Shown piece by piece: positions 5,786-34,100 of a stretch of 38,818 bases of DNA. The position numbers and the translations under genes are program-made. The stretch lies in the IMG/VR virus record IMGVR_UViG_2651869695_000012; one strand, written 5' to 3'. Numbering within the stretch: position 1 is the stretch's first letter; the number at the start of each line of letters is the position of its first letter. The notes below the pieces were generated by a model that saw only the letters and a list, made by a program, of their open reading frames with translations, made no database searches and was not told the origin of the DNA. This DNA is from a virus (lineage: Duplodnaviria; Heunggongvirae; Uroviricota; Caudoviricetes).

Positions 5786-6484
5786 TTACTGCGAAAGTTT
5801 GTTAATGGAAAGGAAGCCGCCAAAGTTGCCGACATTATTGCGAAACTTACAGCCACTCAGGCATTTACTGCATTTATCTTTCGTGATATCGGACGTCGGC
5901 TGGTCATATTCATCCGCGACAGCCGGACCGCTATAACCGCACTCATCACCGCGATAGGTCCAGGTACAGGTGTTGGCCAGCATGATGCGCCCCGGAAAAA
6001 CAGCGCCATCCGTTTCCGTCGGCGTGGACAGTACAAAAGAGGCGCTCACCGCGCTCAGTTCGCTGCACTGCTCGATGCGCCAGCGGCTGATCACCTCCTG
6101 CTCCGGATCGGCATCGCTATTTCCGTTGACGAAGTTCACCGCATCCAGAAAACGGGCGTAAACCTTACGCCTGACCACCGTTCCTCCGACCAGACTCTGC
6201 AGGTCTTCCACCATCCCGGTGACCATGCCGTGCAGATTAGAGACTTTCAGCGTTGGCCTTGCACTGGCTCCTTTGCCGTTCATCTCAAATCCACTTCCCT
6301 GAATGGGATAGGCCTGATACTGCCGCCCCTGCCAGGTGACTGGTTCACCTTTTTCGTTCTGCTCATTACAGAAGAAATAACGATCTCCGCCGACCTCTGT
6401 CAGATCGATTTCCCAGAGCACCACGCTGGCAGACTGCTCCGCACGGGTGCATTCATTCAGTGTTTCCTGTCGGATATTCTGCAT
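5786..6484 (-). CDS. L: Minor tail protein L
   Basis: 232 aa, same length as lambda L; C-terminal Cys-rich segment; position between M and K. Confidence 0.9.
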   Translation of the reverse strand: MQNIRQETLNECTRAEQSASVVLWEIDLTEVGGDRYFFCNEQNEKGEPVTWQGRQYQAYPIQGSGFEMNGKGASARPTLKVSNLHGMVTGMVEDLQSLVGGTVVRRKVYARFLDAVNFVNGNSDADPEQEVISRWRIEQCSELSAVSASFVLSTPTETDGAVFPGRIMLANTCTWTYRGDECGYSGPAVADEYDQPTSDITKDKCSKCLSGCKFRNNVGNFGGFLSINKLSQ

Positions 6485-6813: not shown

Positions 6814-9800
6814 CGTCCACCTCCGGAGAACAGACCACCATCACGGGACTGCTGTTGCATAAAGTCCGCTGCTGCTTTTTTCCCGAGGTCATAAACCACC
6901 TTCAGGGCAGCCGGACCTATCTGCCCGTTCGTGCCATCGTTATTGATCTCGATGTTGTACTGCGGGGCAAACATCGCCATACCTGAACCACCAATATCCG
7001 CCACAACCCCCAGCTTACCGTCAGCACCACGACGCAGAGGCAGAATGGCTTCAGGCCCAGCTTCCCCCATCACACCTGCACCTTTTGCAAAAGCAAAAAA
7101 CGTCGGACGGTTAACCACCGTGCCACTGTAGCGACTCAAATCAGCAGACTGATAAACACCACCATCAGCATTGGGCGTCACACTGGCAGTTGCTGCACTC
7201 CCCCAGCCAAACGCCGAACCAATCCCCTTAACTGCCTGCATCATGGACATCTGAGCCATGATTTTTGCCAGATCAGAAAGGAGCGAGGCGGTAAAAGATT
7301 TGAAGTTCAGTTTTCCGGTGGTACAGAATGTAGCCAGTGCATTACCTGCACTATTAAATGCCGCTGTAAGCATCTGCTCCGCAGTGCCTGCCGCATTATC
7401 CGCATCTGCCGTGAAATTCTGAAACGCCCGCATGGCACCGTTTTTCCAGTTACCCTGAGCAATTTCAAGCTGTTGCCAGTAACGGCGATTCTCATTCAGT
7501 TGCCTGTTCAGGCTCTCCGTCAGCGCCTGCTCGGCCTTTCTGTAGTCATCCGTGTTATATGTCCCTTTCTGCTCACTATCCCGCCTCAACTGCTCCAGCT
7601 GTTGCTGGTATTTCTGGCGAAGGCTCAGTTGTACCTGATATCGCTGCCGCTGCTGATCACCCATACCCACCGTGGCGATATCCAGGTCATGTTGCTGACG
7701 CTGAGCGCGCTCTTCTTCAGCCAGTTGACTGGTCAGCTGAATTGTTTTTTTCTTCAGATCGTTGAGTGCCGTCTGTTTCTGAAGCTCCTGCTGTTTTACA
7801 TCCAGCAGCGTCAGTGCCTGAATCAGTTCATCTTTACGGGCCAGCACACTCTTTTCATCTGCCGTCAGTTTTTTCCCGTCCAGGTCGCTGATGCGCTGCT
7901 GCAGAGCCAGAAGCTGTTTATGCGCTTCTGTCATCTTTTCAGTGGCAATGCCTGCTGACTGTCTTGCAGCAGCAATCTGTCCTTCCACCTGTGCCTGTTG
8001 CTGACTGTACTGCAGCAATAACCGGGTGGCCTCATCATTACGGGTTTCGCGTGTTTTTTTCTTACCGGATGCCAGGGCTTTCTCGTAACGTTCATTTTCA
8101 CGTTGTATCGCCGCATCCCTGACAGCCTGGTCGGCGTACTGCATGGCATTAATACGCGCAATTTCACGCTGATGTCGTGCTGCTTCCGTTTCATTCATCC
8201 GGTTCAGTGCAGCATTTTCAGCATTACGTCGTTTCTGTTGCTCCTGATAATTCCGCTCTGCCTGCTCTTTTGCATCCTGCAAATCCTTCTGGCGTTTTTT
8301 CTCCTGAAGCTCGTTAAGACGCTGCTGATCGTATTCAACCTGAGAAGATGATGCCGTCCAGGGGAGTCTTTTCGCCCGCGATACTTTCTCCTGCAAAGTG
8401 GCAATCTGCGCATCCAGCGAATCTTCACGACCAATATTCATGGCCGCATCCCAGAACTGCTTCCACCAGTCAGACAAGGTTTGCAGCGTACTACCCAGCG
8501 CATTGAGGTTATTATCAATATCCGCAGTACGCCGACCGGTTTCCTCTGCCAGTGCAGACATGGCTATCCGTGCCGCATCACTGGACCGCCCCTGCTCTCC
8601 AAGGATGCGTATCTGCTCAAGCTGAGTGGCAGTAAGAAAATGCAGCTCATTGTCCAGAGCCTTCGCGGCATTTACAGGATCATCCTTCAGCCGCTTAAAC
8701 TGATTTATGGTATCGCTGATCGACTGGCCAACCGATCGCTCCATCTGTGCGGCAGCTCTCGCCACCATACCGATATCGTTTCCACGAAATGCACCACTCC
8801 CCACCACCTGAGCCAGCGCACCGGCTGCAGCATGTTGCGTGATACCATTCCCGGAAATAGCACGACTGAGCGTCCACAGCTGCCCGGCAGTGACTCCGGC
8901 ATAATGCCCCGTCAGCGACAGCTGGCGGTTAAATTCTTCCCCCTCCTTCTGACCGTCATACCAGGCTTTACCCAGACCATAGACGGCCGCGGTAATACCG
9001 CCAATAACCCCGCCCAGCATCATGCCTTTCGGTGACATCAGTGTGTCTATCCATCCGGCACGGTTAGCCAGCGTTATCCCGGATCCCCTCAGCGCCCCTA
9101 AATTGCCGCGGGCCAGTTCACCTATCAGAACGCCTATCTCCTGGCGGGCCGCTGCACTTTTCAGACCCAGCGAATGCGTGGCTTTTCCTGCCCGCTCCAT
9201 TTTGCGGATATACACTTCTGCAGCACTGCTTACCCCCAGCTGGGCAGCCCTGGCACGAAGCAACTCAGAAGAAGAAAGATTCTGGCGGGTTGCCTGCTCT
9301 TTAAGCTGACGGATAAACGCCACTTTCTGTCGGGTAGCCTCTGCCTCAGCCTGCGTAAGAACACGGGTTTTCGCCGTAACCTCAGAAATCAGCGCCAGAT
9401 AATCCTGCTGACCAATCCCGCCACTGTTTCTGGCCTGTCGGATCTGCTGCTGAATACGCTGTAATTCCTGCAACCCCGCACTGGCCTGTTTCACACTGTC
9501 AATCTGACGATAAAACGCGGCAGCCGCTTTATCCTGAGCCTCCGCCAGAGCCATGGCCTGTGCCTGTTCCTCGCGCATTTTCTGGCTCAGTGCCTCCATA
9601 CGCTGGCGGGTTTGCTCCACCTCGCGGGCCATGCGTTCATGAGCCTGTGCGCTCTTCTCCACCGTCTGCGCATGGACGGATGCGGCTGTTGCAGCCGAAG
9701 AAGCCGCCTGCATTGTCTGCCGGGCGGCCTGAGTCTGACGCTCCATAAAACGCTGCATACGGGCAGAAGACCGTTCTGCATCGCTGGCTGCACCATTCAG

Positions 9801-25839: not shown

Positions 25840-26229
25840 TCAGGCGGCTGCACCCGCCGTTTTCTCGTACTTACTGATAGTGATCTCGACCTTCCCTTTC
25901 GGGATAACCGGTCCCCACTCCACCAGCATTCTTTTCACCTGACTGTCGTCTTCCCACACACCCGCATGGGTCAGGGCGTCAAACAGCGCCTTGTTATAGT
26001 TGTCCAGATCGCGGATCCGGTTATCCGGAGGAAACAACACGATCTCCACTGAAGCAGGTGCCGACGTTGGTTTCGGCAGACGACGTAACTGCTCAACTAT
26101 TGCTGCGCACGCCGCGCTCTGGAATTTTCGCCCCGCCGAGCTTATCAGGCTCTTACCAGCAAACGCCCCTTTGTTGGGGTGTCGCCAGTACGTGTTCACG
26201 CTGGGCGGAAAAGGCAGGATCAGCTTCAT
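25840..26229 (-). CDS. rusA: RusA-family Holliday junction resolvase
   Basis: 129 aa; LPFPPSVNTYWRH and DLDNYNKALFDALT motifs typical of RusA. Confidence 0.85.
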   Translation of the reverse strand: MKLILPFPPSVNTYWRHPNKGAFAGKSLISSAGRKFQSAACAAIVEQLRRLPKPTSAPASVEIVLFPPDNRIRDLDNYNKALFDALTHAGVWEDDSQVKRMLVEWGPVIPKGKVEITISKYEKTAGAAA

Positions 26230-26552
26230 GCTTTCAGGCCTCTCTCATGTAACCAGTGGGTTGCACGCAGCCTTGCGTTTTCCTCACCGGCAAGCAGTGA
26301 GCGGATAATCCCGACCGCCTCGCTGTCGTCGTCCTTCACCGCGGTATGAAGCGTGATCCCCCGGGCCACGCCACGCTTTATCGTGATGACGCCTTTTTTC
26401 TCCAGTGCGCGAAGATGCTCCACCGCTGCATTCACTGAACGGTATCCCAGCATGGTTGCCACCTCCTGATTGGTTGGCGGGAAGCCACGTTCTTTCTGAT
26501 AAGAAATCAGCATATCCAGCACCTGCTGCTGGCATTGAGTTAACGTCGTCAT
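26226..26552 (-). CDS. LexA-N-terminal-like winged-helix DNA-binding protein
   Basis: 108 aa; LTQCQQQVLDMLISYQKERGFPPTNQEVATMLGYRSVNAAVEHLRALEKKGVI resembles the LexA DNA-binding domain; no peptidase domain. Confidence 0.6.
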   Translation of the reverse strand: MTTLTQCQQQVLDMLISYQKERGFPPTNQEVATMLGYRSVNAAVEHLRALEKKGVITIKRGVARGITLHTAVKDDDSEAVGIIRSLLAGEENARLRATHWLHERGLKA

Positions 26553-27202
26553 GCCGCCATCTCCCTGACCAGTTTTTCTGCCTGCTGGCGAACCTGCGCC
26601 AGAAACGCCTCACCACATGCCTCAAGTTCATCGCGCCCGATGTAGCTGATTGCCGGTCCCTTCCAGGTCTTGTCGAAAACAGCAATAGCACCAGCGAAGA
26701 AAGCGCCTGTCGGCACCTGCTTCTCATCTTTCGGGATAAACCAGGCAGGCAGTTCAAAACCAATACGCCCGCGAATAAAAGCAATATGATCTGCATCTTC
26801 CGGCCACCACACTTCGCAGGTGGCAGCTTTGATCAGGAAAACATAGCGCCCGCCTTTATCACGCATGGCACTGGCATGTTTCATGATGTAACGCATGCCG
26901 GTGATGTATTGCCCCTCATGCTGACTGGCGCGGCTGTATGGGGGATTACCAAAGGCAGCACCTTTAAGCTCCGCAAGACGTTCTGACCAGTCATGCGCCA
27001 GCGCGTTGTCTTCCGCCGTGTAATACGCGGTACATTTGGCGTTATCACCGTCAGTAAACAGATCCAGGACAAACGGGCCAAACAGGGTGTTAATTCCCCA
27101 GAAAATGTTATCCGGCGTGCGCCACTGATCGCCCACTTCCTTCAGTTCATGGGCTGGTTTGTTCCGCAGTTCCACCAGCGCCCGGCAATATTTATTACTC
27201 AT
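26549..27202 (-). CDS. Phage Dam-type N6-adenine DNA methyltransferase (orphan)
   Basis: Start at ATG 27202 (MSNKYCRAL...), 1-nt overlap with the upstream stop; catalytic NPPY motif (GNPPYS). Confidence 0.8.
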   Translation of the reverse strand: MSNKYCRALVELRNKPAHELKEVGDQWRTPDNIFWGINTLFGPFVLDLFTDGDNAKCTAYYTAEDNALAHDWSERLAELKGAAFGNPPYSRASQHEGQYITGMRYIMKHASAMRDKGGRYVFLIKAATCEVWWPEDADHIAFIRGRIGFELPAWFIPKDEKQVPTGAFFAGAIAVFDKTWKGPAISYIGRDELEACGEAFLAQVRQQAEKLVREMAA

Positions 27203-27690
27203 TAAGCCCCCACGTAATTCCCTGACAGATACCACTCTTCACCCGATGCAGCGCGCTTGCTGCTTTTCCGTAAGCACCGCTCACGACGTGCCAGAAAATT
27301 GTTTCGTTCTGGCTGGGAGTGGCTTTCACGGAATGCCGCCATCCACACGGTTGCAGCACGACGGTATAAGCCCCTTGACTCCAGTTCTTCCGCCTGGCGG
27401 GTCAGGCACAAAATCACCCGCGGGTCGTTAGTGCCGACATAGAAATTGCGCACAGGTCTGGTTTCACGAACTGGTTGTGGTTCCAGCTCCTGCGCTCTCT
27501 CAGTCAGGCGCGGGAAATGTCTGCGTGTATCTCCTTCACAACGGTGAGCCACACGCCCACTCTGACGTAACTTGCTTGCATACTGCAGAACGCGCTGCCG
27601 TGAGTAACCTGCAAAAGCATCCGCAATGTCTCCGGAAGTACACCCCGGATGGGCTTCAATGAATTTCTGAACTTCATTCAAAAGACTCAT
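27202..27690 (-). CDS. PerC/ANR-like regulatory protein
   Basis: Start at ATG 27690; C-terminal segment LTRQAEELESRGLYRRAATVWMAAF resembles the PerC family. Confidence 0.5.
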   Translation of the reverse strand: MSLLNEVQKFIEAHPGCTSGDIADAFAGYSRQRVLQYASKLRQSGRVAHRCEGDTRRHFPRLTERAQELEPQPVRETRPVRNFYVGTNDPRVILCLTRQAEELESRGLYRRAATVWMAAFRESHSQPERNNFLARRERCLRKSSKRAASGEEWYLSGNYVGA

Positions 27691-27692
27691 GA

Positions 27693-28511
27693 TCACCCCC
27701 TGAATCCTGCCGGGATCTGGCTGTAGTCCACGTTGTCGTAACTGGCTTTGAAGTACGGGTCCTCACGTCTGGCTGCAGATACCGCAGGAACTTCCCAGGA
27801 TTCTTCGAAATGACGATCCGGACCAAAGAACGTGACAGCCTGTTTCACAAATTGTGTGCCGCTGTTACCCATCGCAGATACCCAGCCCGCGTAGCGTTTC
27901 ACACCTTCCAGCATGGTTTCGGGGTTTACCCCCTCATTCAAACGGGCTTTCCAGGCTTTGAAGGCTGCAGATTTTGAATTGCCACCAGCACGTTTGGGAT
28001 ATGCCAGCCATGCCTGCTCAAACTCCGGAGAGTATTCCGGTCGGTTTGAACGAACTCGCACAGACTCATCAACTGATGCACCAACAGCTATTGGTTCATT
28101 GACTGGTTCTTTGACTGGTTCAAAAGAGTGACTGGTTCTGGGTGAATCTCCTGCACTACCCCCTGGTGCAACTCCTGCACTACCTGGTGAATTTGCTGCG
28201 CCAGATAGTGAATTATTTGCACTACCCCCTAGTGAATCTCCTGCACCATCCAGATGAAGGAGATAGATATTACTTGAGTTACCTTTTTCACCTTTCCGGG
28301 TGACTTTTTTTACCAGCCCGGACTCACAAAGGGCCGCAATATGATTCATCACAGAACGTTTGCTAATCTCGCACTGGTCAGCAATATGCTGGTAGCTGGG
28401 CCAGCACTCCCCCTGATCGCTGGCATTATCAGCCAGCTTGATCAGAACCAGTTTTCGCAATGGATTACCCACTCGAATTTTCATCGCTTTAACCATCAGC
28501 TCCATACTCAT
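27693..28511 (-). CDS. Replication initiator (lambda O-like organisation) with origin iterons inside the coding sequence
   Basis: 272 aa; N-terminal HTH (VGNPLRKLVLIKLADNASDQGECWPSYQHIADQCEISKRSVMNHIAAL); low-complexity Gly/Ser/Ala/Pro linker whose DNA carries direct repeats; C-terminal domain. Confidence 0.7.
   Translation of the reverse strand: MSMELMVKAMKIRVGNPLRKLVLIKLADNASDQGECWPSYQHIADQCEISKRSVMNHIAALCESGLVKKVTRKGEKGNSSNIYLLHLDGAGDSLGGSANNSLSGAANSPGSAGVAPGGSAGDSPRTSHSFEPVKEPVNEPIAVGASVDESVRVRSNRPEYSPEFEQAWLAYPKRAGGNSKSAAFKAWKARLNEGVNPETMLEGVKRYAGWVSAMGNSGTQFVKQAVTFFGPDRHFEESWEVPAVSAARREDPYFKASYDNVDYSQIPAGFRG
28090..28260. repeat. Iteron array (candidate origin of replication) inside the replication initiator gene
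   Basis: Three copies of TGACTGGTTC (28099-28138) and about five degenerate ~21-24-bp repeats of the form AATCTCCTGCACTACCCCCTGGTG (28143-28255), read directly. Confidence 0.55.
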
Positions 28512-28732
28512 GCAGCACCTCCGAGATGCTTCATGTTTTTTCCGGAGCGAAAGGCTATAAGCGGCATACTGACGCGGTAATTACGGCCCAGCGGTTCACA
28601 AATCACCTTCTGACATTCACGGTCAACCAGGCTAACACGTAGAACATGCCCTGCAGGTGTGGTGTACCACTGACCCGGACGAGGACAACGGAAAGTCTGA
28701 TTGGTAAACCGTTTGAAAATATTCCGGATCAT
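28508..28732 (-). CDS. Small hypothetical phage protein
   Basis: 74-aa ORF with start overlapping the upstream stop (ATGA) and stop overlapping the replication gene start; no family recognised. Confidence 0.4.
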   Translation of the reverse strand: MIRNIFKRFTNQTFRCPRPGQWYTTPAGHVLRVSLVDRECQKVICEPLGRNYRVSMPLIAFRSGKNMKHLGGAA

Positions 28733-29889
28733 TTGCGCCCCCTTACCTCTGAAGGGTTCAGCGACAAATTTATGAGGCAGGCCAGCGCCGAAGCATCATT
28801 AATATAATCATATAAGCTAACAGCCAGCGGAGATTCAGCTTTTGCCAACATAGGATAAAGCTGCTGCAGCCAGACCTTGTGGATTACCGACAGGTGGGAG
28901 TAAAGCACGCTGGCGTTATCTGCGGCATCGCTCAGCGTGGATGGCTTTGAAAGCAGTTTTTCCATCTGGTTAAAGGCATTGATGTATGCCTCTTTGAACC
29001 GGGCAGCACGTTTACCCGTGAAACCCATAGCAAGAAACGCAAAACCGTCTCGTGTGATTTGATAGCAAGGGAGCTTGCGTGTACCACCGTTCGGTTGATT
29101 TACCGAAATCGATGTCTCCGCAAAATTGCGGGCACAAAACTCAGGGGAACAATCCAGAGTGCGGATCTTTTTCAGCACATCGTCGTGACGCTTGGAGAAG
29201 AAGTTGGCAACAGCCAAAGAAGTGGTAACGGCCTGGCCGTTGTCAATGGTGATTTCAGGTTGAGTGAGGGCTTGGATCGTAGCCATGATGGCAGCCTCCG
29301 TTGACAGTGAAAAACTTCCACCACCGGAAACGCCAATTTCACTGGTGGTGAACTGGACGGGGTTGGCGTAACCGGCGTCAACGGAGACCGGCGCACCTTT
29401 CGGTGCCCCCGCCCAGCCCACCATAATCTGGATGTGAGCAAATGCGGACGATAAAAAAGACGCTGGCGCGTCATACATCGCCGTTGACAATTTCAGGACG
29501 CCAATCCCGGCACCCGCTTTATAAGGTGCCTGAACAGTGTAACGTCCCGGAATTGCAGAATCAATATGCTGGTGGTCCTTCACACTCAACAAAATCACGC
29601 CTGAATTTCCACAAAGGACTAAAGCACTCATGCGGGTAGTCTTTGCGAAGATAGATAACGCGCTGTGTTTCTGGCTCCCAACGAATAACATGAACATAAA
29701 GTCCTCTTCCGTCACGAAACCAGCGGTTAAGTTCCTGCACAACTCGCCCCCCACAGTCAGGTAAAGTTCTCTGTGGTTACTTACAGCCAGGTGATTTGGT
29801 AATCTGCATTCATGCCGTAACAACAGGTGTGCAGCGACACTGACCACCAGCTGTTGCGACAAACGGTTATTTGCCGTTAAACTGTTCAT
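28729..29889 (-). CDS. Protein with C-terminal Rha-like phage regulatory domain; possible internal start at 29286
   Basis: 386-aa ORF whose ATG at 29889 overlaps the CII-like stop (ATGA); C-terminal half carries a Rha-like segment (VTTSLAVANFFSKRHDDVLKKIRTLD); strong GGAGG RBS precedes internal ATG 29286. Confidence 0.5.
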   Translation of the reverse strand: MNSLTANNRLSQQLVVSVAAHLLLRHECRLPNHLAVSNHRELYLTVGGELCRNLTAGFVTEEDFMFMLFVGSQKHSALSIFAKTTRMSALVLCGNSGVILLSVKDHQHIDSAIPGRYTVQAPYKAGAGIGVLKLSTAMYDAPASFLSSAFAHIQIMVGWAGAPKGAPVSVDAGYANPVQFTTSEIGVSGGGSFSLSTEAAIMATIQALTQPEITIDNGQAVTTSLAVANFFSKRHDDVLKKIRTLDCSPEFCARNFAETSISVNQPNGGTRKLPCYQITRDGFAFLAMGFTGKRAARFKEAYINAFNQMEKLLSKPSTLSDAADNASVLYSHLSVIHKVWLQQLYPMLAKAESPLAVSLYDYINDASALACLINLSLNPSEVRGRK

Positions 29890-30437
29890 GCGTTAGTTTC
29901 TCCACAGACACAAAACGCCACGACGCCCGGAGCTGCACACTCGCGGGCGTTACTCTTTTCTGGAGCGCAGAAGATTTTGTAGACCAGTGCTGCATGCTCC
30001 TGGAGCTTCGAAATTGACAGATACAACTCATCATTAATTGCTGTCTGCTCGTGTGGCTCCACTACCCCATCTTCGATTGCCGAACGAATCTGCTTTGAGT
30101 AACTCCCGATCTGTTCGATGACTTCCAGCAGGCGCTGGTTTATATCGGCGTTCTCTACTTCCTCAATTTCTGGAAGTGATACAAACACCCCACCAGCAGA
30201 CTGTGCGACAGCATCCGCAATGTGGTGAGTACCAGCCGCACGCTGTAAAACCATTGCCCATCCCAACGGAAAAAACTGATCGCCATCGGCACGAAGGCGG
30301 TTGAATAAAGCGTTCTCTGTTACATCCAGCCACTCAGCAGCTTCAGCGTAACCCCCCGGCAACACCGCGATAGTTTTTCTGACAGCTTTCACGTACCACT
30401 CAGGCTGTTTTTCCACTTTCCAGTGATGCTTACCCAC
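29886..30437 (-). CDS. CII-like regulatory protein (CP76-type)
   Basis: 183 aa, second gene of the cro-side operon, overlapping the cro stop; family assignment from memory of the CP76 pattern. Confidence 0.5.
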   Translation of the reverse strand: MGKHHWKVEKQPEWYVKAVRKTIAVLPGGYAEAAEWLDVTENALFNRLRADGDQFFPLGWAMVLQRAAGTHHIADAVAQSAGGVFVSLPEIEEVENADINQRLLEVIEQIGSYSKQIRSAIEDGVVEPHEQTAINDELYLSISKLQEHAALVYKIFCAPEKSNARECAAPGVVAFCVCGETNA

Positions 30438-30690
30438 GGCTTACCTCCTGTTCCTGTGGTTTTAACTCATTCCGGTTTTGACTAGATTGAAAGCGTGCAG
30501 GATAGAGAATCTGCATTTCGCTGATTTCTCCCTTAAAAAAATTGGCCAGACGTTCTGCAAGCTCGATAGATGGAATTTGTTCCAGTCTTTCAATACGACT
30601 CAGCGTCGCTGGATTGACCTGAACGCCCGCAGCAACATGCTGCAAAGTAAATCCGTGCGCCTTACGCACATTCCGTAATGGTGATTGCAT
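30430..30690 (-). CDS. Cro-like HTH (XRE family) repressor
   Basis: 86 aa; HTH LQHVAAGVQVNPATLSRIE; GGAGG RBS; divergent from the CI-like gene across an operator-rich spacer. Confidence 0.8.
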   Translation of the reverse strand: MQSPLRNVRKAHGFTLQHVAAGVQVNPATLSRIERLEQIPSIELAERLANFFKGEISEMQILYPARFQSSQNRNELKPQEQEVSRG

Positions 30691-30787: not shown

Positions 30788-31480
30788 ATGAACATAGGAA
30801 ATCGAGTCAGACAACTTCGCCAGGCGAAGAACATGAAAATCGCCGATCTCGCTGAAGCAATAGGAGTGGATGCGGCGAATATCTCGCGCCTCGAAACAGG
30901 TAAGCAGAAACAATTCACTGAACAAGCCCTGAGTAATATTGCCAGGAGCTTAGGTGTTGATATTGCTGATCTCTTTACCTCAGACCTCAAAAGTAATACT
31001 GTATGTAAAAACAGTATTAGTGAGGATGTTGCGCAGGTGAAGGATGTATTCCGTATTGAAATGCTGGATGTCAGTGCCAGTGCGGGAAATGGCCTTATCC
31101 AGGGCGGTGATGTCATTGATGTGATTCATGCCATTGAATACAGAACTGATAATGCTGTATCGATGTTTGGTGGACGACCAGCAAATCACATTAAAGTTAT
31201 CAACGTTCGTGGGGACAGTATGTGTCCAACCATTGAGCCAGGAGATCTCATCTTCGTTGATATCAGTATCAATCAGTTTGATGGGGATGGTATATATGTA
31301 TTTGGTTTTGATGATAAAATTTACGTCAAACGACTGCAAATGATACCTGATAAACTGCTGGTAATTTCTGATAATCAGATTTACCGCGAATGGGGAATTA
31401 CCAGCGAAAACGAACATCGGTTTATGGTCTTTGGAAAGGTCTTAATCAGTCAGTCACAAACCCTTAAGCGACACAATTAA
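30788..31480 (+). CDS. CI-like repressor: N-terminal XRE HTH plus C-terminal S24 (LexA-like) autopeptidase
   Basis: 230 aa; HTH VRQLRQAKNMKIADLAEAIGVDAANISRLE; Ala-Gly cleavage site (SASAGNG); Ser nucleophile in GDSM and Lys in VKRL. Confidence 0.9.
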   Translation: MNIGNRVRQLRQAKNMKIADLAEAIGVDAANISRLETGKQKQFTEQALSNIARSLGVDIADLFTSDLKSNTVCKNSISEDVAQVKDVFRIEMLDVSASAGNGLIQGGDVIDVIHAIEYRTDNAVSMFGGRPANHIKVINVRGDSMCPTIEPGDLIFVDISINQFDGDGIYVFGFDDKIYVKRLQMIPDKLLVISDNQIYREWGITSENEHRFMVFGKVLISQSQTLKRHN

Positions 31481-31575: not shown

Positions 31576-31989
31576 CTTCATTTTATCTTTCTTTCCAGAC
31601 CTACAAACAAGGTACTAACAAAATTTGGTTGTAACACGGCGTATGGCACATGCGTCGTTAGCGGTCTGGGGACGTTAAAGGGGACAATCCACTCCTTGCT
31701 CGGGCAAACAAACCAGGTAGCCGGAATGTGCAAGTCAATGAGGATGCTGATAAGACGCCTAACCAGCGTGGCGATTCGGTTTGACGCCTGGGAAGAGACC
31801 AGGGTGCAACGATGAGGGCATTTATGGAACCGCGACAAAGTGTGGTGCCGTAACTGGCTAAGTGCTCTCAGCGTTGTGGTAATCCGCGAAATGGCGCGGC
31901 GGTAAGTATGGCGGGGTTATTCCTTCCCCGTTGAGGACACCGGGTTGTCAGGTTGACCATACGCTTAAGTGACAAGCCCACCACAACAG

Positions 31990-32046
31990 CCACTGCTTTG
32001 GCGGTACCAGTTTGTACACTTGCTTCCGGCTGGTACCGCTCTTTTT
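31990..32046 (+). ncRNA. Candidate DicF-like small RNA / terminator hairpin in the leader
   Basis: 10-bp perfect stem GCGGTACCAG / CTGGTACCGC (32001-32010 / 32030-32039) then TCTTTTT; the 5' part UUUGGCGGUACCAGUUUGUAC resembles E. coli DicF (UUUGGCGGUAUCAGUUUUAC) as recalled from memory. Confidence 0.35.
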
Positions 32047-32135
32047 ACAAAACAGAGAAGAGCATCACCGGACGACGGGCTCATAACCCAATCCACCCGG
32101 GCGGCTGCCACCGCAGGTGTTCTTCTCTGTTTTGT
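32047..32135 (+). other. Long perfect inverted repeat (14-bp stem around a ~61-nt interior); candidate RNase III processing site or attenuator
   Basis: ACAAAACAGAGAAG (32047-32060) is the exact reverse complement of CTTCTCTGTTTTGT (32122-32135); sits immediately before the RBS of the first downstream gene. Confidence 0.45.
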
Positions 32136-32183
32136 GGAGAAACCAACCGACCTTGCAGGGTCGATATGATGAGGAGCAGCAAA

Positions 32184-32546
32184 ATGGCTAGCGAACGCAG
32201 TACTGATGTGCAGGCATTTATCGGGGAGCTGGACGGCGGCGTATTTGAAACCAAAATCGGCGCTGTTCTCAGTGAAGTCGCTTCCGGTGTGATGAACACG
32301 AAAACCAAAGGTAAGGTCTCGCTCAACCTGGAAATCGAACCGTTTGATGAGAACCGTGTGAAAATCAAACACAAACTCTCATATGTTCGCCCGACTAACC
32401 GCGGGAAAATTTCTGAAGAAGACACCACCGAAACGCCGATGTATGTCAATCGCGGTGGTCGCCTGACTATTCTGCAGGAAGACCAGGGACAATTACTGAC
32501 TCTTGCCGGTGAACCTGACGGAAAACTTCGCGCAGCAGGTTATTAA
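32184..32546 (+). CDS. Hypothetical protein, first gene of the plus-strand accessory operon (possibly YfdP-like)
   Basis: ATG 32184 preceded by GAGGAG at 7 nt spacing; 120 aa; the longer ORF-track start at 31953 is not supported by any RBS. Confidence 0.55.
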   Translation: MASERSTDVQAFIGELDGGVFETKIGAVLSEVASGVMNTKTKGKVSLNLEIEPFDENRVKIKHKLSYVRPTNRGKISEEDTTETPMYVNRGGRLTILQEDQGQLLTLAGEPDGKLRAAGY

Positions 32547-32611
32547 TATCGTTCTTAATTAACTGATTATTTATCTCATCACTGAATATCTTTATATAGT
32601 GAGGACTTATT

Positions 32612-33436
32612 ATGTCTCAGAACTTAGACGCAACCGCAATTAATCAAATCCATGCTCTTATTTCTGCTCAGGGTGTTAATGAAATTATCAGTAAGATTGG
32701 TGCCGATGCTGTGGCATTGCCTGAGAATTTCCGCATTCATGATCTGGAAAAATTTAATTTAAATCGCTTCCGTTTCCGTGGTGCGCTTTCCACTGCCAGC
32801 ATCGATGACTTTACCCGTTATTCTAAAGATCTTGCAGATGAAGGCACCCGCTGCTTTATCGATGCCGATAATATGCGAGCCGTCAGTGTGCTTAACCTAG
32901 GTACTATTGATGAACCAGGTCACGCAGATAACACCGCCACTCTTAAACTGAAAAAGACAGCACCGTTCTCTGCTCTGTTGTCTGTTAATGGCGAGCGTCA
33001 TTCCCAGAAGTCACTGGCAGAATGGATTGAAGACTGGGCCGACTACCTTGTGGGCTTTGATGCTAATGGTGACGCTATTCAGGCAACAAAAGCGGCTGCG
33101 GCTGTCCGTAAAATCACGATTGAAGCAAACCAGACCGCTGATTTTGAAGATAATGACTTCAGCGGCAAACGCTCCCTGATGGAATCTGTCGAAGCGAAAA
33201 CCAAAGATATTATGCCAGTGGCATTTGAATTTAAATGCGTTCCGTTTGAAGGTCTGAAAGAACGTCCATTTAAATTACGCCTCAGCATTATCACTGGCGA
33301 TCGTCCTGTACTGGTTCTGCGCATTATTCAGATGGAGGCGGTGCAGGAAGAAATGGCTAACGAATTTCGTGATCTGCTTGTTGAGAAATTCAAAGACAGC
33401 AAAGTAGAAACCTTTATTGGTACTTTCACCGCCTGA
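32612..33436 (+). CDS. DUF2303/YfdQ-like phage protein
   Basis: 274 aa, GAGGA RBS; length and composition recall CPS-53 YfdQ (from memory, not verified). Confidence 0.55.
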
Positions 33437-33563
33437 TTTCATTACTGCAAATGCCCCTGCGGGGGCATTTATGGAAACGTAATTGACTCAATAATCGCCG
33501 GATGGTGAGGGCTTCCTTTTACCAGAATTCAGCGTGGTGCAGCACATATACGCGGAGAACAAA

Positions 33564-34100
33564 ATGTCATTTATTAAAACTTTTTCCGGGAAGCATTTTT
33601 ATTATGACAGGATAAATAAAGACGACATCGTGATTAACGATATCGCGGTTTCCCTTTCAAATATCTGTCGCTTTGCCGGTCATCTTTCACACTTCTACAG
33701 TGTCGCCCAACATGCGGTGCTTTGCAGCCAGCTGGTGCCGCAGGAATTTGCTTTTGAAGCGTTAATGCATGATGCAACAGAAGCATATTGCCAGGACATC
33801 CCCGCGCCACTGAAACGCCTTCTTCCTGACTATAAACGGATGGAAGAAAAAATAGACGCCGTAATCCGTGAGAAATACGGGTTACCTCCTGTTATGAGCA
33901 CGCCAGTGAAATATGCCGATCTCATTATGCTGGCAACCGAACGCCGCGATCTCGGGCTTGATGATGGCTCTTTCTGGCCGGTACTGGAAGGCATCCCGGC
34001 AACAGAGATGTTCAAAGTGATTCCACTGTCACCAGGCCATGCCTACGGGGTGTTTATGGAACGTTTTAACGAGTTATCGGAGTTACGCAAATGCGCATGA
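33564..34100 (+). CDS. HD-domain phosphohydrolase (YfdR-like 5'-deoxynucleotidase)
   Basis: ATG 33564 with GGAG RBS; HD motifs (SVAQHAVLCS ... ALMHDATEAY); ~178 aa. Confidence 0.7.
   Translation: MSFIKTFSGKHFYYDRINKDDIVINDIAVSLSNICRFAGHLSHFYSVAQHAVLCSQLVPQEFAFEALMHDATEAYCQDIPAPLKRLLPDYKRMEEKIDAVIREKYGLPPVMSTPVKYADLIMLATERRDLGLDDGSFWPVLEGIPATEMFKVIPLSPGHAYGVFMERFNELSELRKCA

What the first reader, a model, noticed from the sequence alone, without database searches (positions are those of the whole stretch)
28090..28260. Origin-like iteron array inside the replication initiator gene
Seen in sequence: three TGACTGGTTC repeats and about five degenerate ~21-24-bp direct repeats (consensus roughly AATCTCCTGCACTACCCCCTGGTG) lie within the region encoding the low-complexity linker of the HTH replication protein (27693..28511). 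Established knowledge: lambda ori consists of iterons inside the O gene. Inference: this is the prophage replication origin bound by its own initiator.
Basis: partly seen in the sequence, partly recalled or inferred. Interest (0 to 1): 0.5.

Follow-up and report, generated by a model that had tools for sequence, protein, structure and literature searches.

The report
Phage replication origin inside initiator gene
The repeats are real and are very probably the replication origin of this lambda-like prophage, built like the classic lambda origin (initiator-binding repeats inside the initiator's own gene) but in a different protein family and next to a short DNA box kept letter-for-letter in phages from Haemophilus to Pseudomonas.

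Summary
Observation confirmed. The array has five 19-bp repeats, each an imperfect 7-N5-7 inverted repeat (TRGTGMA-N5-TKCACYA), spaced 24/21/21/24 bp at 28140-28248. Next to it lie three exact and one degenerate GAACCAGTCA units, mostly 12 bp apart (28088-28139). Both sit in the part of gene 27693..28511 (-) that encodes a predicted disordered linker between a winged-helix N-domain (Pfam HTH_36) and a helical C-domain.

The repeats are not a codon by-product. Synonymous-codon resampling never reproduces them (P<5e-5).

In more than 200 related phage and prophage loci, the same slot holds 3-8 dyad repeats. Their sequence differs between phages and tracks the HTH recognition helix, not the C-domain.

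The GAACCAGTCA box is identical even at synonymous sites, whatever the iteron class, C-domain type, neighbouring helicase or loader gene, or host.

Some relatives join this N-domain, iterons and box to a lambda-O-type C-domain followed by a P-like gene.

Interpretation supported: a lambda-type intragenic origin, in an "O-only" replication module (Stx-phage type Eru6; also SfV and ST64B) whose replication has not been studied experimentally. What the conserved box does (unwinding or helicase-loading zone) is inferred, not shown. This is a new member of a known kind; the box is the potentially new part.

The parts
27693..28511 (-). Replication initiator gene (272 aa): N-terminal winged helix, disordered linker, helical C-domain.
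   Evidence: The ORF is listed. It matches Pfam HTH_36 at 1.8e-11 and DnaD_N weakly. It matches PHROG 270 'replication initiation protein' at 1.7e-88. The protein is 100% identical to SfV orf39 and 98.8% identical in DNA to the Eru6 reference phage Stx2a_WGPS2.
28260..28511 (-). Coding region of the winged-helix DNA-binding domain (aa 1-84). The recognition helix, aa 50-63, is encoded at 28323-28364.
   Evidence: The AF2 model has pLDDT 83-92 here, with helices H39-46 and H50-63 and wing strands E66-72 and E78-84. Mutual information with iteron class peaks at residues 49-56, 59-64 and 71-79.
28230..28248 (-). Iteron 1, TGGTGCAGGAGATTCACTA (gene strand), 5 of 7 dyad positions.
   Evidence: it sits in register -109 from the box start.
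28206..28224 (-). Iteron 2, TAGTGCAAATAATTCACTA, 6 of 7 dyad positions.
   Evidence: register -85.
28185..28203 (-). Iteron 3, TGGCGCAGCAAATTCACCA, 5 of 7 dyad positions.
   Evidence: register -64.
28164..28182 (-). Iteron 4, TAGTGCAGGAGTTGCACCA, 6 of 7 dyad positions.
   Evidence: register -43.
28140..28158 (-). Iteron 5, TAGTGCAGGAGATTCACCC, which abuts the box.
   Evidence: register -19. This register is conserved across relatives.
28088..28139 (-). Conserved box AGAACCAGTCACTCTTTTGAACCAGTCAAAGAACCAGTCAATGAACCAATAG. It holds four phased GAACC units starting at gene nt 374, 391, 403 and 415. It is the candidate unwinding or helicase-loading zone.
   Evidence: locate the units. The box keeps one codon at 5 of 5 invariant residues, against 1 of 33 in the N-domain. 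In 10 protein-selected phages the consensus is CCAGAAcCagTCACtCTTttGAAcCAGTCAa.GAacC, with sharp edges. It is present in at least 120 viral contigs and 89 stretches of the species-representative genome collection. It is the least stable 30-40 bp on the family average.
28260..28289 (.). Least stable 30-mer of the gene in this window (GAAAAAGGTAACTCAAGTAATATCTATCTC on the gene strand), on the other flank of the iterons. It is a second candidate soft spot.
   Evidence: The nearest-neighbour stability profile is. GC is 0.40-0.43 around 28240-28319.
27696..28043 (-). C-terminal helical domain (aa 157-272), the presumed helicase or loader recruitment domain.
   Evidence: It matches PHROG 26426 'replication protein' and PHROG 1701 'DnaD-like helicase loader'. 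It has no Pfam, NCBIfam or PDB match. The same domain family occurs next to DnaC-like (49), P-like (26) or no loader gene (29).
27202..27696 (-). PerC/YfdN-like gene, in the slot where relatives carry a helicase loader or helicase. This makes the module 'initiator only'.
   Evidence: It matches Pfam PerC at 7.6e-09. Downstream gene families are tabulated. The 'O-only' class is described in PMC12315714.
28508..28732 (-). 74-aa ORF of unknown function whose stop overlaps the initiator start (ATGA), so the two are probably co-translated.
   Evidence: it matches PHROG 1153, unknown function, at 1.3e-45.

Best explanation
This is the replication origin of a lambdoid prophage, embedded in its own initiator gene, and it works like ori-lambda.

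Shown:
- There are five 19-bp dyad-symmetric iterons, followed by a conserved box of four phased GAACC units (starts 17, 12 and 12 bp apart).
- Both are under DNA-level constraint that the encoded peptide does not explain.
- Iteron sequence co-varies with the recognition helix and wing of the N-terminal winged helix.
- The N-domain, iteron and box unit is combined in nature with at least 10 different C-terminal domains, including the lambda O C-domain, and with P-like, DnaC-like or DnaB-like neighbours.

Inferred:
- After prophage induction, the 272-aa initiator is made from the rightward early operon.
- Dimers of its winged-helix domain occupy the five iterons, all roughly on one face of the helix. 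They form an O-some-like nucleoprotein complex.
- The strain opens the adjacent, less stable box (or possibly the soft 30-mer on the other flank).
- The C-terminal domain then brings in the host DnaB-DnaC complex directly, because this phage carries no loader of its own.

The linker peptide (GAGDSLGGSANNSL...PRTSHSFEPVKEPVNEP) is largely a passenger of the DNA signal.
For: - Chance is excluded. The iteron pattern gives 8 strand-hits against 0.71 expected, and 0 of 100 shuffles reach that.
- A codon by-product is excluded. In 20,000 synonymous recodings of the same peptide, dyad 19-mers average 0.12 against 4 observed, and pattern hits average 0.06 against 5 observed (both P<5e-5). Three GAACCAGTCA copies have P=5e-5.
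- The geometry equals lambda's. Both use 7-N5-7 19-mers. Starts are 20-24 bp apart in lambda and 21-24 bp apart here.
- Position is conserved. In 107 non-redundant relatives the dyads sit at fixed registers (-109, -85/-88, -64, -43, -19) from the box. There are 2.2 dyads per linker, against 0.51 in the N-domain and 0.17 in the C-terminal coding DNA.
- Specificity co-varies. Six iteron classes each have their own recognition-helix motif, for example GTGMA with EIS[KR]RSVMNH, TGCCR with ECSK[ST]AVRxH, GGGCA with EIGRSTVKxH and TAGGC with EIDRSTVR[KR]H. Class is independent of C-domain family.
- The box is constrained at DNA level. One codon is kept at 5 of 5 invariant residues, against 1 of 33 in the N-domain. 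In its first nine codons all 6 variants seen in 10 protein-selected phages change the amino acid (F to S or L, S to Y or P, T to I, P to T) and none is synonymous.
- The initiator role is supported. PHROG calls the family a replication initiation protein. One sister C-domain family is homologous to lambda O residues encoded at 39221-39496 (41% identity, E=2e-17). Downstream genes include lambda P (PF06992), IstB/DnaC-like and DnaB.
- The linker is predicted disordered.
- Iteron number varies in whole units among near-identical relatives: 3 to 7, and 8 in phage cdtI.
Against: - There is no experiment. Neither binding nor origin activity has been shown for any member. The 'O-only' class is stated to be unstudied (PMC12315714).
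- The flanking element is only moderately AT-rich: GC ~0.42 here, against 0.25-0.33 in lambda.
- Two soft spots flank the iterons, so the unwinding site is not determined.
- Most of the >200 loci were retrieved by searching for the box itself. Their box conservation is therefore by construction. The unbiased support rests on 10 phages found by protein similarity.
- The mutual-information result is not corrected for shared ancestry.
- The C-domain has no characterised homologue, so helicase recruitment is conjecture.
- The prophage in this window may be defective.
Confidence: 0.8

Rival explanations
1. The repeats are only a by-product of a repetitive, low-complexity peptide linker (Gly/Ser/Ala/Pro repeats and EPVx repeats) and have no DNA-level function.
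For: The region encodes a repetitive peptide that AF2 predicts as disordered. Repeat number varies in frame.
Against: Synonymous recoding of the same peptide never gives the observed dyads or repeats (P<5e-5). An amino-acid repeat gives no reason for inverted-repeat DNA. Different phages encode quite different linker peptides yet keep the 7-N5-7 geometry and the registers. Box codons are invariant at synonymous sites while amino-acid-changing variants are tolerated.
Confidence: 0.02
2. The dyad repeats are binding sites of the HTH protein but serve regulation rather than initiation: autorepression, a transcription roadblock, titration, or exclusion of related phages. The origin lies elsewhere.
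For: Iterons in plasmids also act in copy control and autoregulation (general knowledge). Cloned lambda ori iterons inhibit rep-lambda phages (PMC3349717, listed; I read only its abstract). No strongly AT-rich tract is adjacent.
Against: No other repeat array or initiator-type gene is evident in the early region. The array has the same position and geometry as the proven lambda origin. The module travels with helicase and loader genes and with lambda-O C-domains. A conserved low-stability box is always attached.
Confidence: 0.08
3. The GAACCAGTCA box is conserved because it is a recombination joint: a short shared sequence at which N-domain-plus-iteron units and C-domain units are shuffled between phages. 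It has no role in replication.
For: The box lies exactly at the junction where one N-domain family meets at least 10 unrelated C-domain families. Its conservation has sharp edges. Lambdoid phages are known mosaics (PMC9836094, title and abstract only).
Against: A joint maintained only by occasional recombination should decay. Instead it is identical in hosts ranging from Haemophilus to Pseudomonas. Distant N-domain relatives, and an unrelated initiator (Eru7), carry different phased 11-12-bp repeats in the same slot. That points to a functional requirement for phased repeats rather than for shared homology. The two ideas are not exclusive.
Confidence: 0.1
4. The box is conserved for its peptide (P-R-T-S-H-S-F-E-P-V), a short docking motif for a host protein such as DnaB or another replisome factor. 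The DNA sequence is incidental.
For: The peptide is recognisable in all close relatives and lies in a disordered linker, where short linear motifs are typical.
Against: Codons, including the 6-fold degenerate Arg as AGA, are invariant where N-domain codons are saturated with synonymous change. The variants that do occur are radical amino-acid changes with minimal nucleotide change.
Confidence: 0.05

Closest known systems
ori-lambda inside gene O of phage lambda (and the homologous origins of phi80, 21, 933W-type Stx phages)
   Same: The origin is an array of 19-bp iterons with 7-N5-7 dyad symmetry, spaced 20-24 bp, inside the initiator gene. It lies between the DNA-binding N-domain and the C-domain, followed in the direction of transcription by a less stable tract. 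I read this from a lambda record and compared it. Iteron specificity resides in the N-domain. Some relatives of this gene carry a lambda-O-type C-domain and a P-like neighbour.
   Different: The N-domain belongs to a different Pfam family: HTH_36/DnaD_N here, Phage_rep_O in lambda. hhalign finds no similarity. There are five iterons instead of four. The flanking element is a sequence-conserved box of phased GAACC units (GC ~0.4), not a 25-33% GC tract. This phage has no P gene.
Origins inside gene 18 of P22 and phage L
   Same: These are different iteron sets inside distantly related origin-binding genes of lambdoid phages. P22 has four ~20-bp repeats and L has six 11-bp repeats, as described in PMC8022706.
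   Different: Those phages pair the initiator with a DnaB-type helicase (gene 12). Their repeat sequences and protein families differ. In phage L the origin is likewise only predicted.
'O-only' replication modules of lambdoid phages (phage LLS class; Stx-phage type Eru6; SfV orf39, ST64B sb42)
   Same: This window is a member of that class. Its initiator protein is identical to SfV orf39, 88% identical to the ST64B protein, and its gene is 98.8% identical in DNA to the Eru6 reference phage. A single initiator gene is followed by PerC, Dam, a LexA-like gene and RusA.
   Different: The papers I could read classify the genes but do not mention iterons or an origin. One states that replication of this type is not understood. 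The origin anatomy given here is therefore an addition, as far as the held literature shows.
Iteron-type plasmid origins (RK2 oriV/TrfA, F/RepE, pPS10/RepA) with phased 13-mer repeats in the unwinding element
   Same: Both have initiator-binding iterons next to a zone of short phased repeats where the duplex opens. In those plasmids Rep proteins also contact one strand of that zone; I state this from general knowledge and did not check it here.
   Different: Plasmid iterons are usually asymmetric sites bound by Rep monomers, and their origins commonly include DnaA boxes. Here the iterons are dyads, and no DnaA box or IHF site lies in the gene.
DnaD of Bacillus subtilis (N-terminal winged helix)
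   Same: There is a weak Pfam DnaD_N match below the family cut-off (24.3 against 27 bits). Foldseek hits to DnaD-N structure 2v79 appear among many winged-helix folds.
   Different: The matches are not significant. DnaD is a host primosome adaptor, not an iteron-binding initiator. No DnaD C-domain was detected.

Membership tests
Lambda-type intragenic iteron origin (architecture) | An array of at least 3-4 direct repeats of ~19 bp, each with internal dyad symmetry, spaced about two helical turns apart. | tested here: met
   There are five 7-N5-7 19-mers with starts 24/21/21/24 bp apart. Lambda measured the same way gives four such repeats with starts 20/24/23 bp apart.
Lambda-type intragenic iteron origin (architecture) | The array lies inside the initiator gene, between the DNA-binding N-domain and the C-terminal domain. 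| tested here: met
   The iterons occupy gene nt 264-372 (aa 88-124). The winged helix spans aa 1-84 and the C-domain starts near aa 157.
Lambda-type intragenic iteron origin (architecture) | Repeat sequence co-varies with the initiator's DNA-binding domain, not with its C-domain. | tested here: met
   Six iteron classes each have their own recognition-helix motif. Mutual information peaks at residues 49-56, 59-64 and 71-79. Class is independent of C-domain family. Shared ancestry was not corrected for.
Lambda-type intragenic iteron origin (architecture) | An adjacent AT-rich, easily unwound tract downstream of the iterons. | tested here: inconclusive
   The box is the least stable stretch on the family average (GC 0.38-0.41). 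In this window its GC is ~0.42, and the softest 30-mer lies on the other flank at 28260-28289. The lambda tract has GC 0.25-0.33.
Lambda-type intragenic iteron origin (architecture) | The initiator binds the repeats, and the segment supports initiator-dependent replication. | not testable with these tools
   This needs EMSA or footprinting and a plasmid replication assay or marker-frequency analysis.
Lambda O protein family | The N-terminal domain matches Phage_rep_O (PF04492). | tested here: not met
   The window protein matches HTH_36, not PF04492. Lambda O matches PF04492 at 5.7e-36. hhalign of the two gives probability 4%.
Lambda O protein family | A C-terminal domain homologous to the P-binding domain of lambda O, with a P-like loader gene downstream. 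| tested here: not met
   The window C-domain belongs to family 0, not the lambda-like family 3. The downstream gene is PerC-like. Both features are met in some relatives that have the same N-domain and box.
HTH_36-type phage replication initiators with the conserved box (SfV/ST64B/Eru5/Eru6 group) | An HTH_36 N-domain homologous to the group. | tested here: met
   The HTH_36 match is 1.8e-11. One N-domain family of 185 members was found.
HTH_36-type phage replication initiators with the conserved box (SfV/ST64B/Eru5/Eru6 group) | The box AGAAYCWRTCACYCTTYNGAACCAGTCA lies in frame (R-T-S-H-S-F-E-P-V) directly after the last iteron. | tested here: met
   In the window the box is at 28112-28139. 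All 218 box-bearing loci read the R-T-S-H-S-F-E-P-V type peptide in this frame; in the 187 complete ORFs the box sits at a median of aa 124 of 263. Ten of 10 protein-selected phages with at least 47% N-domain identity carry the box.
Iteron plasmid origins (Rep_3 / RepA-type) | DnaA boxes and/or IHF sites accompany the iterons. | tested here: not met
   No TTATNCACA match (up to 1 mismatch) and no WATCAANNNNTTR match falls within 27693-28511.

The most novel reading that the evidence does not exclude
The ~37-bp box (CCAGAACCAGTCACTCTTTTGAACCAGTCAANGAACC) may be an undescribed, nucleotide-invariant core of a portable origin module. It is shared by hundreds of gammaproteobacterial phages, whatever their iteron specificity, C-terminal domain or helicase and loader genes. 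On this reading, its phased GAACC units are read in single-stranded or distorted form, either by the conserved part of the initiator or by a conserved host replisome component. That would make it the place where DnaB is loaded. If so, it would explain how 'O-only' lambdoid phages start replication without a loader of their own. The same element would double as the joint at which origin-recognition and helicase-recruitment halves of initiators are exchanged.
Probability: 0.35. Interest if true: 0.7.

Novelty: new member of a known kind. Interest (0 to 1): 0.5.

Why it matters
This replication module has one initiator gene and no helicase or loader. The same or a near-identical initiator gene is carried by Shiga-toxin phages (Eru6 type, Stx2c phages), serotype-converting phage SfV, Salmonella phage ST64B and many E. 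coli prophages: 897 of 5,426 complete E. coli genomes hold a near-full-length copy.

A 2025 survey states that none of the phages with such O-only modules has been studied experimentally and that their replication is not understood (PMC12315714).

Pinning the origin to 28088-28248 gives a defined DNA fragment and a defined protein domain for binding, unwinding and plasmid replication assays. It also gives a table of natural helix-to-iteron pairs for specificity swaps.

Replication level affects toxin gene dosage in Stx phages, so the origin is also a practical target. The conserved box, if functional, would be a sequence signature for finding origins of this phage group in genomes.

Tried and rejected
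- A protein-pattern scan of viral contigs with an N-domain alignment returned only near-identical E. coli copies. It served for iteron copy-number counts but not as an unbiased diverse sample.
- Two searches of the large protein collection returned mostly truncated 'partial' proteins ending in the repeat zone. They were useful only for building the structure alignment.
- The C-terminal domain has no Pfam, NCBIfam or PDB sequence match, even with a profile. Foldseek on the model gave only generic winged-helix hits for the N-domain, all with E>0.01. The mode of helicase recruitment therefore stays open.
- I considered a programmed -1 frameshift at CAC TCT TTT GAA (a -1 frame TGA follows). I rejected it because the site is not a canonical slippery heptamer and many relatives have TCT TCT or CCT TCT there.
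- I considered an internal promoter in the box (TTGACT on the + strand). The consensus scan finds none in 27600-28800.
- I considered DnaA or IHF binding. No sites lie in the gene.
- Full-text searches for the box DNA or peptide found only unrelated primers. The SfV genome paper (PMC134923) is not held.
- From memory only, not verified: Weigel and Seitz (FEMS Microbiol Rev 2006) classified 'initiator-solo' phage replication modules and may already have predicted origins in such genes.
Full report
**What is there**

ORF 27693..28511 (minus strand, 272 aa) lies in the rightward early operon of a lambdoid prophage. The gene order on the minus strand is:
- a cro-like gene (30430-30690), opposite a cI-like gene on the plus strand (30788-31480)
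- a cII/CP76-like gene
- a Rha/Ash fusion gene
- a 74-aa ORF
- this gene
- a PerC/YfdN-like gene
- Dam
- a LexA-N-like gene
- RusA

This order comes and from the PGAP annotation of a 99.8% identical copy.

The protein matches Pfam HTH_36 at aa 17-67 (1.8e-11) and DnaD_N weakly. It matches PHROG 270 'replication initiation protein' at 1.7e-88. It is 100% identical to orf39 of Shigella phage SfV and 88% identical to the ST64B protein. Its gene is 98.8% identical to that of Stx2a_WGPS2, the reference phage for replication type Eru6 (PMC8951638).

The AlphaFold2 model shows three parts:
- a confident winged helix at aa 1-84, with the recognition helix at aa 50-63
- a disordered stretch at aa 90-156
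- a helical C-domain at aa 161-221

TRF finds a 24-bp-period array at 28142-28246 and a 12-bp-period array at 28092-28122. GAACCAGTCA (gene strand) occurs exactly at 28129-28138, 28112-28121 and 28100-28109. A degenerate fourth unit lies at 28088-28097.

Read on the gene strand, the longer repeats are five 19-mers of the form TRGTGMA-N5-TKCACYA, at 28230-28248, 28206-28224, 28185-28203, 28164-28182 and 28140-28158. Each is an imperfect inverted repeat. Their starts are 24, 21, 21 and 24 bp apart.

The core pattern GYGCANNNNNTKCAC gives 8 strand-hits in the window against 0.71 expected. None of 100 shuffles reaches 8. The only site outside the array is an unrelated palindrome at 7337.

**The repeats are not a by-product of codon repeats**

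I recoded the same peptide 20,000 times with synonymous codons drawn from local codon usage.

| Measure | Observed | Mean in recodings | P |
|---|---|---|---|
| Dyad 19-mers | 4 | 0.12 | <5e-5 |
| Core pattern hits | 5 | 0.06 | <5e-5 |
| GAACCAGTCA copies | 3 | not computed | 5e-5 |

A peptide repeat also gives no reason for inverted-repeat DNA.

**Comparative evidence from a protein-selected sample**

A tblastn search of annotated phages with the protein gave relatives in E. coli, Salmonella, Klebsiella, Pectobacterium, Aeromonas, Vibrio and Pseudomonas phages. I fetched 16 of them.

In every relative with at least 47% N-domain identity, the linker holds 3-8 direct repeats that differ from phage to phage. 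All have the 7-N5-7 dyad form. Examples are TATGCCA-N5-TGGCACA in a Klebsiella phage, TGGGGCA-N5-TGCCCYA in the Eru5 phage F403, and TAGTGAC-N5-GTCACCA in Vibrio phage D67.

The repeats are followed immediately by one and the same sequence, CCAGAAcCagTCACtCTTttGAAcCAGTCAa.GAacC. Its conservation has sharp edges.

Among seven non-redundant phages, only 1 of 33 invariant degenerate residues of the N-domain keeps a single codon. In the box, 5 of 5 do: R=AGA, H=CAC, E=GAA, P=CCA, V=GTC. In the first nine box codons, the six variants seen in ten phages all change the amino acid (T to I, S to Y, S to P, F to S, F to L, P to T). None is synonymous. The constraint is therefore on the DNA, not on the peptide.

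More distant N-domain relatives (30-55% identity: PotUPM1, Va_PF430-3_p42, 1.042.O, mEp013, D96a) keep iterons plus a diverged run of 11-12-bp phased units. Most of these units contain AACC, for example GAACCGTAAT and AACCATCA; D96a has CTAACA units instead.

The Eru7 initiator has an unrelated N-domain. It carries 23-bp repeats (2.7 copies) and then TACAGAGAATAC (3.7 copies) in the same slot.

**Comparative evidence from a box-selected sample**

The hosts include many Enterobacterales, Pseudomonas, Shewanella, Aeromonas, Photobacterium, Haemophilus, Cardiobacteriaceae and one Thalassospira. Box conservation in this set is by construction. What surrounds the box is informative:

- In all 218 loci the box reads the R-T-S-H-S-F-E-P-V type peptide in frame. 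In the 187 complete ORFs it lies at a median position of aa 124 in a 263-aa ORF.
- One N-domain family (185 members) is joined at the box to at least 10 unrelated C-domain families.
- One of those C-domain families is homologous to the C-terminal domain of lambda O (41% identity, E=2e-17, lambda coordinates 39221-39496) and to phi80 gene 15.
- The next gene downstream is DnaC/IstB-like in 56 loci, lambda-P-like (PF06992) in 39, PerC-like in 29 (no loader, as in this window) and DnaB-like in 9. Smaller groups have a DUF968 gene or a primase-helicase gene.
- In 107 non-redundant loci the dyads sit at fixed registers from the box: -109, -85/-88, -64, -43 and -19. There are 2.2 dyads per linker, against 0.51 in the N-domain and 0.17 in C-terminal coding DNA.
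- Iterons fall into classes GTGMA (41), TGCCR (21), TAGGC (13), GGGCA (11), GTGAC (3) and GTGTA (3).
- Mutual information between class and protein column peaks at residues 49-56, 59-64 and 71-79. These are the recognition helix and wing of the model.
- Each class has its own helix motif, and class is independent of C-domain family. I did not correct this for shared ancestry.

**Comparison with lambda, measured rather than recalled**

In a lambda record the same dyad scan finds ATCCCTC-N5-GAGGGAW iterons. The four copies start at 39035, 39055, 39079 and 39102, inside gene O. They are followed by a tract with GC 0.25-0.33. Geometry, spacing, order and position within the gene match the window.

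The proteins do not match. Lambda O is Pfam Phage_rep_O, and hhalign finds no similarity to this N-domain. This is therefore the lambda way of building an origin, in a different initiator family.

The flanking element also differs. On the family average the box is the least stable 30-40 bp (GC 0.38-0.41). In this window its GC is about 0.42, and the softest 30-mer is on the other side of the iterons at 28260-28289. No sigma-70 promoter, DnaA box or IHF site lies in the gene.

**Mechanism**

Shown:
- DNA-level constraint on the iterons and the box
- dyad geometry
- fixed register of the iterons relative to the box
- co-variation of iteron sequence with the recognition helix
- modular association with helicase and loader genes

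Inferred:
- Dimers of the winged helix bind the five iterons.
- The resulting complex opens the adjacent phased-repeat box.
- The C-domain recruits host DnaB-DnaC, because this phage has no loader of its own.

The same C-domain family is found next to DnaC-like, P-like or no loader genes. This is compatible with the domain contacting either the helicase or a loader, but nothing here tests that.

**Literature**

The two Eru papers classify this gene type but mention no iterons or origin. A 2025 Genome Research paper reports that 34 of 314 lambdoid phages have only an O homologue. It says none has been studied experimentally and that their replication is not understood. The phage L paper describes the analogous predicted iterons in gene 18. 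Full-text searches for the box DNA or peptide found nothing relevant. Older subscription literature could not be checked.

**Verdict**

The feature is a new member of a known kind: a lambda-type intragenic origin. The nucleotide-invariant box is the part that may be new.

Noticed in passing
window 28140-28248; loci L221-L300; L001 4001-4885: Iteron copy number is polymorphic among otherwise near-identical initiator genes. Most have 5; some have 3-4, 6 (+21 bp) or 7 (+42 bp). Phage cdtI has 8 (+66 bp). Database alleles of 250 aa are 22 aa shorter than the window protein, consistent with three fewer units. All changes keep the reading frame.
   Followed up: partly
proteins P0001-P0240; L301 (Klebsiella phage phiKp_30): A large share of database proteins of this family are 'partial' and end in the repeat zone. 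The phiKp_30 genome record itself ends inside its iteron array. Short-read assemblies apparently break at these origins.
   Followed up: no
L010 2374-2492 (Stx2a phage Stx2_14040, Eru7 type): This initiator has an unrelated N-domain but the same C-domain family. It carries its own 23-bp repeats (2.7 copies) followed by TACAGAGAATAC (3.7 copies) at the equivalent place. This suggests that 'iterons plus phased 12-bp repeats' is a general design.
   Followed up: partly
window 27202-27696 (-) and 31953-34100 (+): A PerC/YfdN-like gene sits where relatives have a helicase loader. In the near-identical O157:H7 prophage copy (L307), the leftward early operon carries yfdP/yfdQ/yfdR-type genes, as in ST64B, CPS-53 and phage LLS. 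That is the 'no Rec module, O-only' class of PMC12315714.
   Followed up: partly
window 28508-28732 (-): A 74-aa ORF of unknown function (PHROG 1153) has a stop that overlaps the initiator start codon. It is also present upstream of the initiator in cdtI, ST64B-like phages, ZF40 and the Eru7 phage. It could be a replication accessory protein.
   Followed up: no
window 28729-29889 (-): A 386-aa protein combines an Ash domain and a Rha domain. It lies between the cII-like gene and the replication gene. This is the feature used to define Eru6, Eru7 and Eru9 in PMC8951638.
   Followed up: no
window 26226-26552 (-): A 108-aa ORF resembles only the N-terminal DNA-binding domain of LexA (RefSeq names it a LexA family transcriptional regulator). 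It sits between Dam and RusA in the nin-like region and has no protease domain.
   Followed up: no
plasmid records NZ_CP148393.1 (L309), NZ_CP019281.1, CP077666.1, NZ_CP118695.1 and others: Several 33-54-kb circular, non-mobilizable 'plasmids' in complete assemblies carry this replication module. NZ_CP148393.1, the one inspected, shows the phage early-gene order around it and has no plasmid replicon typed. The others, from E. coli, Salmonella, Klebsiella, Shewanella, Microbulbifer and Pasteurella, were not examined. They may be phage genomes persisting or replicating extrachromosomally.
   Followed up: partly
window 7337-7351 and 6337-6346: There is one isolated perfect palindrome matching the iteron core (GTGCATTACCTGCAC) and one isolated GAACCAGTCA, both in the late gene region. 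Both are within chance expectation.
   Followed up: no
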